Assembly: GCA_043822925.1 (NCBI GenBank)
Contig: JBDRBF010000009.1
Span: forward strand, 1-25,360
Reading direction: 5' to 3'
DNA: 25,360 bases
DNA from: a bacterium
GTDB lineage: Bacteria; Babelota; Babeliae; Babelales; RVW-14
Positions 3,001 to 6,000 of the stretch are shown here, piece after piece. Each line of letters begins with the position of its first letter. The stretch's first letter is position 1. The position numbers are program-made.

Positions 3001-6000
3001 TATATAAAAATATTCATAATTTTGCTTGCATATCAGGGGTGTTGGGTTTAGTATTTTTTAATAACTTCTTGTTCTATAAAAAGCCTATTTAACAGGCAAA
3101 AACGGGTCAAAAAACATGAATTTTATACAGGACCATTTTCCGTCGATTTTATTGGGAATACTCGCTGGTGTTTTATATGCCGGTTTTTTGGTTGCCAGTA
3201 TTAAGCAGCGATTATCCCAAAATCCAGGGTCTTTAGGTCAAAAACAAAAATTTGAGAGCCCAGAAATTGAACGGGAAGCACAAGAATTAGCCAAAAACCA
3301 GGCAAAGCGCGCACTGGTTCGTTCAGTTTTGTTTTTTTTACTTCGATATGTTTTCATTTTGTGGTTATTGGTTTTCTTTTTGGTTAAACTGCAAACAAGC
3401 GTGGTTACCTGTATTATTTTCTTTGGTGTAAGTTTTTGGGTTTATATCGTACTTGCACTTAAGGGTAAAATATGAATATCGAAATTTTTAAGTATGAATC
3501 GATTAGGCCATTTAAAATTTTGGGTCTGACGGGTGATTTTTGGACGATTCACATTGATACACTTATTTACACATGGGCAGCCATGGCTGTTTTATTGATC
3601 TTGTCTCTTATTGGCTGGCGGGCGATTAAAAATCGTGATATGAATTATAGTTTAGTTTCTGTTGAATCGGCTATTGGCTTTTTTATTGATTTATGCAAAG
3701 AATCTTTTCCTGTTTTTAACTATAATCATTTTGCTTTTATTCTTTCGCTCTTTTATTTCACGCTTGCATGCTGCTTGATTGGGTTAATCCCAGGGCTTGA
3801 TGAGGCGACAAAAGATTTGAATACAACGCTTGCTATCGGCCTGACGAGTTTTATTTATGTTCAATATGAAATCATAAAAGCTCACGGTGTTTTTGGTTTT
3901 TTAAAAGATCTTGCGCAGCCGTTTTTATTATTAATGCCAGTTAACATTGTTGGAGAGCTTTCGCGTATCGCTTCTATGTCGTTTCGACTTTTTGGTAATA
4001 TTTTAGGTGGTTCGATTATATTTTCTATGATGGTTAATGTATTTGAAAATTTTGCTCTTTATTTTATTTTTTATGTAATAGCCGTGCTAATTTTTTCTTG
4101 GTTTACTGAAAAATATAATTTGTTTTCGCGTTATAAAAAAATACGTGCAGCTATTAAATGGAGCGTAGCGGCAGTTTATTTGTTGCCGTTTGCGCAAATG
4201 TTTTTTGGTATTTTTGAGGGAGTTATACAAGCATTTGTGCTTACCATGCTTACGACCGTGTATCTTTCTATGGGGCTTGGTAGTCATGATAGTACTGAGC
4301 ATGCTGTTAAACATGAACATGAGGAAATCTAATGAATTTGCCTGTTTTTCTCCATTATTTTTCTGCTGCTTTGGCTATGATGCTCGGCGTTGTTGGTGGC
4401 GGGCTTGCCCAGGGCATAGCGGGGTTGAGTACGCTTGAAGCCATGGAACGGCAACCTACTGGCGGTGATAGTTTATTTAAGTCGCTTATTATCGGGCTGG
4501 CTTTAATAGAAAGTGGTTTAATTATAGCGCTTGTTATGTCTCTCATGGTTCTTTTTAGCGTGCAAGAGCCTACTATGGCGAGTGCTTTGTGCGAATTGGG
4601 CATGGGGCTTGCTATTGGTACTGCAGCTGCAAGCATTAGTATAGCATCAAGTTTTGTGGTGAGAGCAGCGACATTTGCGATATCCAGGCAACCATTTTTT
4701 GCGCAAAAAATTATTACAATTATGTTACTTACGCAGTCAATTATTGAAGCCCCAGTTATTTTTGCTTTTATTGTTTCTCTTTTAATTAAAATGAATATAT
4801 CACCATCTATGACCGTGTATGAAAGTTTGCGTTATTTTGCAGCTGCTTTAGCGGTTGCTCTTGGTAGCATTGGGCCGTCTATAGGCCAAGGGATTTTTGC
4901 AAACGCGGCGTGTTCGTCAATCGGTCTTAATAAACGTGCATATGAAAAAGTTTTCCCATTTACGCTTGTTACTCAAGCGGTTATCGAAACGCCCATGATA
5001 TTTTCTATGTTGGTTTCGCTTTTAATTATTTATTCGCATATTATTCTTCTGGATTTTTCTCAGGGGATAATACTTATAACAGCTGCTGCTACAATTGGGT
5101 TTGGAGCTTTGGGCTCAGCAGCTGGAATCGGCTTTGCTGCGTCTAAAAGTTGTTATCAAATAGCGAGTGAGCCGGCAAATTATGGGCCTATTTTTAGAGC
5201 TACATTGCTTGTTTTGGCATTTATTGAGTCTATGGTTATTTATGCGTTAATTATTGCGATGCTTTTGATTAAACAAGCGTCTTGAGATATAAAAAAATAT
5301 GTTAAAAAAATATGTTGTTATTGGTTCTTCGGCTGCGAGTATTAGTGTTTTAACTAAACTGCGTGAGCTTGATAGAAAATCACAAATTCTTTGTATTAGT
5401 GCTGATCAAGATTTACCGTATAACCGGTGCTTACTTGCAGATCTTTTGTGTGATACGTACACGCAAGAACAGATTTATCTTAAAAATAATAGTTTTTTTC
5501 AGGATAATAATATAGAACTCATGCTTAATACGCGTGTTACACAAATTATTCCTGAATCTCGTGAACTTATAGTAACAGACAGTAATAATATAATATGCAC
5601 GGTTTCTTACGATACGTTATTTTTAGGCACTGGTAAATCTGCGTATATTCCTGATATTGCAGGGGTACATATTAATGGCGTAATGCCATTTTTTGATCTG
5701 CGTGATGTGCGTGATATTAAAAATTACATGCAACAAAATCTCGTCTCGAATATTACGATTATTGGTGCTGGGCTTACGGGTTTAGAATGCGCCGACGCGC
5801 TTTTAGGTTTTACGCCAAATTCTTCCATTAATATAAATATTATAGAAAAAGCGGCACACGTTTTACCCTCTATTCTTGATGCTCAAGCGGCGCAATATTT
5901 AAATAATAAAAGCGTCACGCTTTTATTAAACACATGCGTGACTGAAATTCTTGAGTGCAATAATAAAGTGTCAGGCGTTAAGCTTTATTCTGGCCAAGAA

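What a model noticed while it worked through the whole genome (the two positions that open the first line are those of the whole stretch)
3472..5285. Natural four-hairpin (c4) fusion of the F-type ATP synthase c subunit, coupled to the only a-subunit gene
C9:4332-5285 encodes one 317-aa protein made of four fused F-type c-subunit hairpins, each with the ion-binding Glu. It starts on the stop of the genome's only a-subunit gene. A normal 81-aa c is encoded elsewhere (C20:40563-40808). The arrangement is conserved across Dependentiae, so the rotor ring is probably built from c4, alone or with the monomer.
Evidence so far: - Four PF00137 matches over cut-off lie in one frame; Glu at 60, 139, 219 and 299. 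- PF00119 matches one locus only. - The gene is full length in 38 of 40 relatives and in 90 of 91 phylum genomes. - An a-subunit gene lies directly upstream in 29 of 29 loci. - Glu is kept in 110-119 of 119 close homologues. - Hairpins form clades by position, support 0.86-0.96. - 137 of 1.84 billion representatives score E<=1e-30, nearly all 307-329 aa. - Epsilon is 85 aa here and 79-86 aa in 5 of 5 other genomes.
(Added by a program. Inside this text positions count along the whole contig: contig position 1 is position 1 of the stretch shown here. "Call 12" and the like, gene names such as g00115 and contig names such as C1 are that model's own, and its searches are not shown. The text may have been shortened before it was handed on; [...] marks where a part breaks off. 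The agent that wrote the report below was given it as the finding of a first reader that could run no searches.)

Follow-up and report, generated by a model that had tools for sequence, protein, structure and literature searches.

The report
Four-hairpin ATP synthase rotor subunit
This parasitic bacterium encodes four copies of the ATP synthase rotor subunit joined into one protein, kept across its whole phylum beside a normal single copy, which points to a mixed rotor ring like the one known from Acetobacterium woodii.

Summary
Window 4332-5285 (+) encodes a 317-aa protein with four PF00137 hairpins, each with Glu (60, 139, 219, 299). It starts on the stop codon of the genome's only a-subunit gene. 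An 81-aa c lies on another contig, at the head of a c, b-like, delta, alpha operon. In 151 sampled genomes of the phylum, 149 hold a full-length c4 frame, 2 hold fragments, and all 151 hold a separate monomer. The a gene lies directly upstream in 89 of 90 loci. Each hairpin position forms its own clade, and dN/dS is about 0.05. New here: hairpin 2 lacks a carboxylate in 62 of 89 sequences. The best solved relative is the two-hairpin c1 of the A. woodii F/V-hybrid ring. Thermodesulfobacteriota carry complete operons ordered a, c5, c, b', b, delta, alpha, gamma, beta, epsilon. My reading (about 0.6) is that c4 is a rotor subunit of a hybrid c4 + c ring in an F-type enzyme that mainly pumps ions at the cost of ATP. 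There is no protein, structural or RNA evidence; the structure and complex tools could not be run. It is a new variant of a known kind, not described in the papers I could search.

The parts
3116..3475 (+). Small hydrophobic ORF (119 aa) whose stop overlaps the a start (ATGA). It sits in the place where AtpI/AtpZ-type genes sit in atp operons. Its family is unknown.
   Evidence: A similar 87-135 aa membrane ORF ends at the a start in 27 of 29 related loci. There is no Pfam match, and only a sub-threshold NCBIfam match to an unrelated family. hhalign against the 130-141 aa ORF upstream of a in the Thermodesulfobacteriota operons gives probability 4%.
3472..4332 (+). F-type ATP synthase a subunit (286 aa), the only one in the genome. 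The conserved Arg172 (codon 3985-3987) lies in the motif S-F-R-L-F-G-N.
   Evidence: PF00119 E 1.6e-32. It is the single PF00119 locus in the genome. The R-L-F/Y-G-N motif is present in 88 of 89 upstream a genes of the phylum. Arg codon.
4330..4334 (+). TAATG junction: the stop of a and the start of c4 share base 4332.
   Evidence: In 89 loci the distance from the a stop to the c4 start is -17 to +33 nt, and 43 of 89 overlap (my count; starts were chosen heuristically). Contigs of an independent DNA run bridge 4176-4716 at 99% identity or more, without indels.
4332..5285 (+). c4: one 317-aa protein of four F-type c hairpins (8 predicted membrane helices).
   Evidence: Four PF00137 stretches. 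F0F1 subunit C NCBIfam models are passed (NF009998 117.5 vs 116; NF005363 78.6 vs 71; TIGR01260 51.9 vs 43.95), while V-type K models fall far below cut-off. dN/dS is about 0.05 in the closest pair.
4332..4571 (+). Hairpin 1 (aa 1-80): Gln27, loop E-R-Q-P, Glu60-Ser61.
   Evidence: This column is E in 85 and D in 4 of 89. Clade support 100/95.
4572..4811 (+). Hairpin 2 (aa 81-160): loop S-R-Q-P-F-F, Glu139-Ala-Pro. It has the most conserved loop and the least conserved carboxylate.
   Evidence: This column is Q 58, E 27, M 2, G 1, L 1 of 89. The loop is RQP in 75 of 89, and P121 is invariant in 110 sequences. Clade support 100/99.
4812..5051 (+). Hairpin 3 (aa 161-240): Gln186, Glu219-Thr-Pro, loop L-N-K-R-A-Y.
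   Evidence: This column is E 83, G 3, Q 2, S 1 of 89. Clade support 100/98.
5052..5285 (+). Hairpin 4 (aa 241-317, plus the stop codon): Glu299-Ser, Tyr304. It is the hairpin most like a monomeric c.
   Evidence: This column is D 47, E 40, Q 1, G 1 of 89. Tyr is present in 86 of 89. Clade support 96/76. Monomeric c sequences score highest on the hairpin-4 profile among the four.

Best explanation
c4 is a real, functional rotor subunit of the organism's single F-type ATPase. It inserts as an arc of four hairpins (four inner and four outer helices) into the c ring, and copies of the 81-aa monomeric c complete the ring. That makes a hybrid ring of the kind known from Acetobacterium woodii, which has one two-hairpin c1 and nine one-hairpin c2/3. 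As the ring turns, the carboxylates of the hairpins pass Arg172 of the a subunit. The a subunit is encoded, and probably translated, together with c4. The phylum lacks a respiratory chain and imports ATP, so the enzyme most likely runs mainly as an ATP-driven ion pump (H+ or Na+) that keeps the membrane energised. In most of the phylum hairpin 2 has lost its carboxylate, so one step per c4 is silent, as in A. woodii c1. In this genome's clade all four sites are kept. What is shown: gene structure, conservation, co-retention of both c genes, the single a gene, purifying selection, and homology to c1. What is inferred: ring membership, mixed composition, and the direction of work.
For: (1) c4 is intact, with four PF00137 hairpins and four Glu.
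(2) It sits on the stop codon of the only a gene. The a gene is directly upstream in 89 of 90 loci of the phylum.
(3) The genome has one set of F1 genes (alpha on C20, gamma on C41, beta and epsilon on C55) and no V-type I subunit.
(4) A c4-type frame and a separate monomer frame both occur in 151 of 151 genomes of 0.8-1.9 Mb.
(5) The monomer heads the same c, two small ORFs, delta, alpha operon in 32 of 32 loci.
(6) All four hairpins are under purifying selection: pN 0.04-0.08 against pS 0.54-0.64.
(7) Each hairpin position is one clade, so the fusion predates the sampled radiation.
(8) The best solved relative is 4bem_J, the A. woodii F1FO c1 subunit, at E 1.8e-12. Its ring is 9 c2/3 to 1 c1 (passages of PMC9171764, and PMC8904574).
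(9) Thermodesulfobacteriota operons read AtpZ, ORF, a, c5, c, b', b, delta, alpha, gamma, beta, epsilon. In 8 of 8 loci c5 keeps Glu only in hairpin 1 and a monomer follows. One such genome, G153, has no other a or c gene. There, a ring built without monomers would have one site per five hairpins.
(10) Hairpin 2 lacks a carboxylate in 62 of 89, the same kind of decay as in c1.
(11) The phylum has no electron transport chain and does have ATP/ADP translocases, and the ATP synthase is thought to run in reverse (passages of PMC4776705, and PMC6561590).
(12) Epsilon frames of 79-123 codons are nearly filled by the 80-position N-terminal domain model in all 60 matching genomes of 61 searched, against 138 aa in the Thermodesulfobacteriota operon.
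Against: There is no protein, structural or RNA evidence that c4 is in the ring, or that it is made at all. The single-sequence AlphaFold2 model is poor (pLDDT 47). In this genome all four Glu are kept, so a ring of c4 alone is chemically possible. c4 and the monomer were never adjacent in the 90 + 32 loci of the phylum that I examined, so co-expression is not shown. The parallel with the Thermodesulfobacteriota operon may be convergent: when the four hairpins of their 4-hairpin c were reordered, the native order ranked only second of 24 against the c4 profile. Both c4 and the monomer have Shine-Dalgarno-like motifs (74 of 89 and 30 of 32), so gene layout says nothing firm about stoichiometry. 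The direction of work rests on published genome-based inference, not on measurement.
Confidence: 0.6

Rival explanations
1. The ring is built of c4 alone (for example 2, 3 or 4 copies, giving 8, 12 or 16 hairpins). The monomeric c then has another role, or is a minor or spare component.
For: In this genome all four hairpins keep Glu, and at least 3 carboxylates are kept in 84 of 89. c4, not the monomer, is tied to the a gene. c4 hairpins 1 and 2 keep the R-Q-P loop, which is RQP in 75 of 89 for hairpin 2, while the monomer has it in 0 of 32. I recall that this loop contacts the central stalk in E. coli.
Against: The monomer is kept in 151 of 151 reduced genomes and heads the operon that holds delta and alpha. 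Its Glu is invariant in 32 of 32. In the Thermodesulfobacteriota relatives a ring of c5 alone would carry one site per five hairpins. The one characterised relative, A. woodii c1, sits in a mixed ring.
Confidence: 0.15
2. There are two alternative rings, one of c4 and one of monomers. They would serve the same a and F1 at different life stages or conditions, for example outside and inside the host, giving two ion/ATP ratios.
For: The two c genes lie in separate loci throughout the phylum, so they could be regulated apart. Members of the phylum have an infectious and a replicative stage (recalled, from no call).
Against: No regulatory evidence of any kind exists: no RNA holder was found. The tight link of c4 to the single a gene means c4 is made whenever a is made. 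In Thermodesulfobacteriota both c genes are in one operon.
Confidence: 0.1
3. c4 is not a rotor part. It would be an assembly scaffold for a or the ring, or it would form an F1-independent ion-conducting module with a.
For: Its position next to a, and the small conserved membrane ORF upstream, could fit an assembly module.
Against: An assembly factor would not need the ion-binding carboxylates, which are kept in 89, 83 and 87 of 89 for hairpins 1, 3 and 4. It would not need the R-Q-P loops either. The genome has one a gene only, which F1Fo itself needs. All four hairpins pass the F-type c family cut-off.
Confidence: 0.05

Closest known systems
Acetobacterium woodii F1FO c1 subunit (PDB 4BEM chain J) in the F/V-hybrid c ring, 9 c2/3 to 1 c1
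   Same: It is a multi-hairpin c subunit of an F-type enzyme that coexists with one-hairpin c. It is the best solved sequence relative: E 1.8e-12, with c4 residues 167-313 aligned to c1 28-176. One hairpin has Gln for Glu, as does hairpin 2 in 58 of 89 c4 sequences. As I recall, the c1 gene also follows the a gene; the Thermodesulfobacteriota operons show that order.
   Different: c1 has two hairpins and one site. c4 has four hairpins and 3 or 4 carboxylates in 84 of 89 sequences, four in this genome. In this phylum the operon is split between c4 and the monomer. The A. woodii enzyme makes ATP from a Na+ gradient, whereas this one is thought to hydrolyse ATP.
Multi-hairpin c subunits of Thermodesulfobacteriota (loci L116-L123, L147-L149). 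I found no description in the papers I searched.
   Same: They are F-type, encoded directly after a and directly before a monomeric c. They include a 326-aa four-hairpin form (L148). Their interior hairpins share the (Q/E)-T-P-x-I-F motif and their last hairpin the S/T-x-A-I-Y motif. Hairpin 2 of c4 joins their interior hairpins on the tree, with support 99 and 97/82.
   Different: They keep a carboxylate only in hairpin 1 (patterns EQQQ and EQQQQ) or in the first and last (EQQQE). Frames range from 163 to 616 codons in 17 of 201 genomes. The operon is complete and unsplit, and epsilon is full length at 138 aa. Hairpin-by-hairpin orthology with c4 is not clean.
Multi-hairpin proteolipids of A/V-type ATPases, with 2, 3 or 13 hairpins and fewer ion sites
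   Same: Tandem fusion of c hairpins with partial loss of carboxylates (passages of PMC9171764, and of bioRxiv 10.64898/2026.10.01.756066).
   Different: Those belong to A/V-type enzymes. This genome has no V-type I subunit, and c4 fails the V-type K models while passing F-type c models.
Engineered fused c subunits (c2, c3, c4 in E. coli; c2 to c10 in Bacillus PS3). This is recalled; PMC8809890 was seen only as a search listing.
   Same: Covalently linked F-type hairpins can work in a ring.
   Different: Those are laboratory constructs of identical hairpins. Here the four hairpins are old, diverged paralogues, each with its own conserved features.

Membership tests
F-type ATP synthase subunit c (PF00137; NCBIfam F0F1 subunit C) | A helical hairpin that matches the family model over its cut-off | tested here: met
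   Four matches of 32.3-48.4 bits against a cut-off of 24 in one frame. NF009998, NF005363 and TIGR01260 are passed.
F-type ATP synthase subunit c (PF00137; NCBIfam F0F1 subunit C) | An ion-binding carboxylate in the middle of the second helix | tested here: met
   Glu60, 139, 219 and 299 align with Glu63 of the monomer.
F-type ATP synthase subunit c (PF00137; NCBIfam F0F1 subunit C) | Encoded with other F-type genes, beside the a subunit | tested here: met
   It starts on the a stop codon. The a gene is upstream in 89 of 90 loci.
F-type ATP synthase subunit c (PF00137; NCBIfam F0F1 subunit C) | Physically part of the rotating ring | not testable with these tools
   This needs purified enzyme.
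Hybrid-rotor c1-type subunit (A. woodii) | Closest solved relative is c1 | tested here: met
   4bem_J at E 1.8e-12. The next hit is a one-hairpin c at 5.8e-08.
Hybrid-rotor c1-type subunit (A. woodii) | Coexists with a one-hairpin c that serves the same single enzyme | tested here: met
   One a gene and one F1 set. Both c types occur in 151 of 151 genomes.
Hybrid-rotor c1-type subunit (A. woodii) | Gene lies between a and the one-hairpin c in one operon | tested here: inconclusive
   It lies directly after a, but the monomer is at another locus in all loci examined. The order a, c5, c is seen in Thermodesulfobacteriota.
Hybrid-rotor c1-type subunit (A. woodii) | Fewer ion sites than hairpins | tested here: not met
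   This genome keeps all four Glu. The feature is met in 65 of 89 sequences of the phylum, with 3 carboxylates in 60 and 2 in 5.
Hybrid-rotor c1-type subunit (A. woodii) | Present in the ring together with monomers (9:1 in A. woodii) | not testable with these tools
   This needs native mass spectrometry or cryo-EM.
V/A-type proteolipid (subunit K/c) | Passes V-type K models and is accompanied by V/A-type stator genes | tested here: not met
   V-type K models score 47.1 against 188, 37.8 against 211 and 37.2 against 127. There is no PF01496 match in the genome, which is 92.5% complete.

The most novel reading that the evidence does not exclude
c4 is a single-copy, asymmetric keystone of the ring. 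It would be made with subunit a, nucleate ring assembly, fix the number of hairpins, and offer the central stalk a unique docking place through the R-Q-P loops of hairpins 1 and 2, which the monomers lack. More widely, F-type enzymes with one multi-hairpin c (2 to about 7 hairpins) plus monomers would form an unrecognised, widespread class. In that class the ion/ATP ratio is tuned by decay of carboxylates, an F-type replay of the step that produced V-type pumps.
Probability: 0.25. Interest if true: 0.8.

Novelty: new variant of a known kind. Interest (0 to 1): 0.62.

Why it matters
The size and make-up of the c ring set the ion/ATP ratio of every rotary ATPase. Only one natural F-type ring with a multi-hairpin subunit has been studied (A. 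woodii), and the purpose of that subunit is still unclear. Here a four-hairpin form is fixed across a whole phylum of energy parasites whose enzyme is thought to work as a pump. One of its sites decays in most lineages, and related forms with 2 to about 7 hairpins occur in Thermodesulfobacteriota. This gives a natural series for testing three questions: how fused hairpins constrain ring size, how many silent steps a motor tolerates, and whether loss of sites goes with pumping. It also shows that annotation as 'subunit C' hides these forms.

Tried and rejected
- Single-sequence AlphaFold2 model of c4: pLDDT 47.4, pTM 0.30, too poor for a fold search, so none was run.
- Alignment-based prediction with A1: not accepted, four times.
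- Complex prediction of c4 (A1) with the monomer (A2): never queued because the queue was full. There is no result of any kind.
- The search for related loci with alignment A1: no stretch conserved enough to search with.
- Identity of the upstream 119-aa ORF: no Pfam match, only a sub-threshold unrelated NCBIfam match, and hhalign probability 4% against the ORF upstream of a in Thermodesulfobacteriota. An AtpI relationship is not supported.
- The two small ORFs after the monomer: one has weak sub-threshold matches to subunit B models (E 3e-5, 23.6 bits against 339), the other none. I call them b-like by position only.
- Promoter and terminator scan of 2800-6800: at chance level.
- Expression: no RNA holder listed, and nothing laid from the two metatranscriptome runs X12 and X13.
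- Shine-Dalgarno motifs: present before both c genes, so they allow no inference on stoichiometry.
- Order-permutation control for hairpin-by-hairpin orthology with the Thermodesulfobacteriota 4-hairpin c: inconclusive. The native order ranked second of 24, and only the last hairpin maps cleanly.
- Profile scores of c5 hairpins: mostly highest on the monomer profile.
- Paper searches for a multi-hairpin F-type c beyond A. woodii, or for any remark on the c subunit of this phylum, found nothing.
- Matthies 2014 (PMC4228694) is not held.
- The supplements of the TM6 papers were not opened.
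Full report
**Observation.** The window is the whole 25,360-base contig C9 of a 1.52-Mb, 86-contig assembly that is 92.5% complete. ORF 3472-4332 (+) encodes a 286-aa protein that matches PF00119 (ATP synthase a) at E 1.6e-32. ORF 4332-5285 (+) encodes a 317-aa protein that matches PF00137 (subunit c) at E 2e-39, in four stretches. In a six-frame search of the genome, all four stretches score over the family cut-off (48.4, 32.3, 44.0 and 45.0 bits against 24) and lie in one open frame. 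The only other match over cut-off is an 81-aa c on contig C20. PF00119 has one locus in the genome. Aligned with the monomer, the four hairpins place Glu60, Glu139, Glu219 and Glu299 on the monomer's Glu63 (codons). The a stop TAA and the c4 start ATG share base 4332. c4 passes three NCBIfam F0F1 subunit C models and falls far below the V-type K models. Contigs of another public DNA run bridge the a/c4 junction at 99% identity or more, without indels.

**Rest of the enzyme.** The monomeric c on C20 follows a deoxynucleoside kinase gene. After it come two small ORFs (119 and 167 aa), then delta (PF00213) and alpha. The 119-aa ORF has only weak sub-threshold matches to subunit B models, and the 167-aa ORF has none. 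Gamma is on C41. Beta and an epsilon with an 85-codon frame are on C55. No V-type I subunit was found. A third PF00006 match on C2 was not examined. The genome therefore has one a, one F1 set and two kinds of c, spread over four loci.

**Conservation.** The tool does not name the phylum. Source names of the near homologues read Candidatus Dependentiae, Candidatus Babeliales or candidate division TM6, and they call the protein 'ATP synthase F0 subunit C' or 'hypothetical protein'.
- In 151 genomes sampled from the phylum (all labelled same family or same order), 149 have a 311-354 codon frame. G132 has a frame cut by a contig end. G064, an assembly of 120 contigs, has only a 150-codon frame with one match.
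- I analysed 90 loci. An a gene is directly upstream on the same strand in 89, and the 90th is cut by its contig end. The a stop and the c4 start lie -17 to +33 nt apart, and 43 of the 89 overlap (starts chosen heuristically).
- The a subunit keeps its R-L-F/Y-G-N motif in 88 of 89.
- A separate monomer-size frame (82-136 codons) is present in 144 genomes by the first search and in the remaining 7 by a family search, so in 151 of 151.
- The monomer has the same operon context in 32 of 32 loci. Its Glu is invariant in 32 of 32.
- c4 and the monomer were never neighbours in these loci, so the split of the operon is as old as the sampled radiation.
- For the closest pair of c4 genes dN/dS is about 0.05. 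Every hairpin has pN 0.04-0.08 against pS 0.54-0.64; dS is near saturation.
- On a tree of 92 hairpins, each of the four positions is one clade, with support 100/95, 100/99, 100/98 and 96/76. There were only 76 columns, and the bootstrap had not fully settled.
- Among 1.84 billion representatives, 137 score E<=1e-30, and 127 of the best 150 are 300-339 aa.

**What varies.** I counted the four carboxylate columns in 89 full-length sequences.

| Hairpin | Residues at the carboxylate column |
|---|---|
| 1 | E 85, D 4 |
| 2 | Q 58, E 27, M 2, G 1, L 1 |
| 3 | E 83, G 3, Q 2, S 1 |
| 4 | D 47, E 40, Q 1, G 1 |

- Four carboxylates are kept in 24 sequences, three in 60 and two in 5.
- The commonest pattern is E-Q-E-D, in 39 of 89, and in 59 of 127 representatives. 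This genome's E-E-E-E pattern occurs in 22 of 89.
- On a tree of whole c4 built without these columns, the 27 sequences with Glu in hairpin 2 fall in one group of 28 (support 100). Two changes suffice. The direction is unknown because the tree has no root.
- The loop of hairpin 2 is the best conserved part of the protein: R-Q-P in 75 of 89, and P121 invariant in 110 sequences. Hairpin 1 has R-Q-P in 24 of 89 and x-Q-P in many more. Hairpins 3 and 4 and the monomer (0 of 32) lack it.

**Relatives outside the phylum.** The best solved relative is chain J of 4BEM, the two-hairpin c1 subunit of the A. woodii F1FO ATPase (E 1.8e-12). Its first hairpin keeps Glu and its second has Gln. Passages of PMC9171764 and PMC8904574 describe its ring as nine one-hairpin c plus one c1, and say the ring needs its own AtpI for assembly.

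Among the representatives were longer proteins of five hairpins. One of them lies in MAGs labelled Thermodesulfobacteriota, Desulfobacterales, Desulfobacteraceae, Desulfosalsimonas, Deltaproteobacteria and Bacteriovoracaceae. There the operon reads AtpZ (PF09527), ORF, a, c5 (five PF00137 stretches), c (83 aa), b', b, delta, alpha, gamma, beta, epsilon. In 8 of 8 loci c5 has Glu in hairpin 1 only, and a monomer follows. In the phylum of that genome, 17 of 201 sampled genomes have such a protein at E<=1e-25, with frames of 163 to 616 codons. These include a 326-aa four-hairpin form (E-Q-Q-Q) and five-hairpin forms (E-Q-Q-Q-E), each followed by a monomer. One genome, G153, has no other a or c gene (its completeness is not given).

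This explains the Thermodesulfobacteriota label of the Atlas look-alike clusters. The current NCBI taxonomy places Babeliales in Candidatus Babelota.

Whether c4 and these proteins share a fused ancestor is open. Hairpin 2 of c4 joins their interior hairpins on both trees, and the motifs agree. But a reordering control ranked the native hairpin order second of 24.

**How it most likely works.** If the split loci of this phylum are joined, they give a, c4, c, then two b-like ORFs, delta, alpha. That is the order of the Thermodesulfobacteriota operon and, as I recall, of the A. woodii operon. Taken with one a gene, one F1 set and the retention of both c genes in every sampled genome, the simplest reading is a hybrid ring. 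c4 would contribute an arc of four hairpins, and monomers would contribute the rest. The carboxylates would pass Arg172 of a in turn.

Passages of PMC4776705 and PMC6561590 state that the phylum lacks an electron transport chain and imports ATP. They also state that its ATP synthase probably hydrolyses ATP to keep the membrane potential. The phylum-wide short epsilon, with frames of 79-123 codons in all 60 matching genomes of 61 searched, fits this. As I recall, the C-terminal domain that inhibits hydrolysis in other bacteria is the part that is absent.

The coupling ion is open. The monomer carries the whole Na+ ligand set listed in PMC2359735 (Gln, Glu, Ser/Thr, Thr, Tyr), while the c4 hairpins carry partial sets. 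The number of c4 per ring is unknown.

**Limits.** Nothing here shows that the protein is made or sits in the ring. The only model I could make is poor, though the ESM Atlas holds this exact sequence with a confident model of its own (pTM 0.90). Alignment-based folding and complex prediction could not be run. No RNA data were found. For each paper cited I read only the passages named above. The supplements of the TM6 papers were not opened and may list the gene.

**Novelty.** Eight full-text searches found no description of a four- or five-hairpin F-type c, or of the c subunit of this phylum. A 2026 preprint on rotary ATPase evolution says that F-type rings are predominantly built of hairpins and that duplications are much rarer in them than in A-type enzymes; the only bacterial hybrid ring in the passages shown is that of A. 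woodii (passages). I rate the finding a new variant of a known kind, the hybrid F-type rotor. It is well supported as a gene family, and its role is inferred.

Noticed in passing
L116:4688-13324 (also L117-L123, L147-L149): Thermodesulfobacteriota MAGs carry complete F-type operons with a 4- or 5-hairpin c placed between a and a monomeric c. The fused protein keeps Glu only in hairpin 1, or in the first and last hairpins. 17 of 201 sampled genomes of that phylum have such proteins, with frames of 163-616 codons.
   Followed up: partly
proteins P0233 (968 aa), P0232 (434 aa), P0230 (328 aa), P0242 (1139 aa): Other long tandem-hairpin c proteins appear among the representatives. P0233 is a roughly 12-hairpin protein of unknown origin in a cluster of 12 members. 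P0232 has five hairpins, all with Glu. P0230 has four hairpins in the pattern E-E-E-Q. P0242 is a roughly 14-hairpin protein named from Promethearchaeota.
   Followed up: partly
G000 C20:40563-40808 (L008:8564-8809, - strand): The monomeric c carries the full Na+ ligand set of the I. tartaricus c subunit (Gln30, Glu63, Ser64, Thr65, Tyr68). Gln is kept in 31 of 32 monomers of the phylum and Glu in 32 of 32, so a Na+-coupled enzyme is possible.
   Followed up: partly
G000 C55:41688-41924 and 59 other genomes: Epsilon is short across the phylum. Open frames are 79-123 codons in all 60 matching genomes of 61 searched, so little more than the N-terminal beta-sandwich domain is left.
   Followed up: partly
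G000 C9, C20, C41, C55: The ATP synthase genes are scattered over four loci: a and c4; c to alpha; gamma; beta and epsilon. The first two blocks are conserved across the phylum.
   Followed up: partly
window 13656-24803: There are four paralogous calcineurin-like phosphoesterase (PF00149) genes in a row. One of them (17189-21118, 1309 aa) is fused to a long ankyrin-repeat region.
   Followed up: no
window 6643-7092 and 7118-7888 (- strand): Two neighbouring ORFs (149 and 256 aa) have no Pfam match, but their C-terminal halves are visibly similar.
   Followed up: no
window 8602-11117 (- strand) and 5299-6522 (+): The window holds an anaerobic ribonucleotide reductase NrdD with its radical-SAM activase. 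A pyridine nucleotide-disulphide oxidoreductase lies 13 nt downstream of c4; it had no match in the 29 related loci searched.
   Followed up: no
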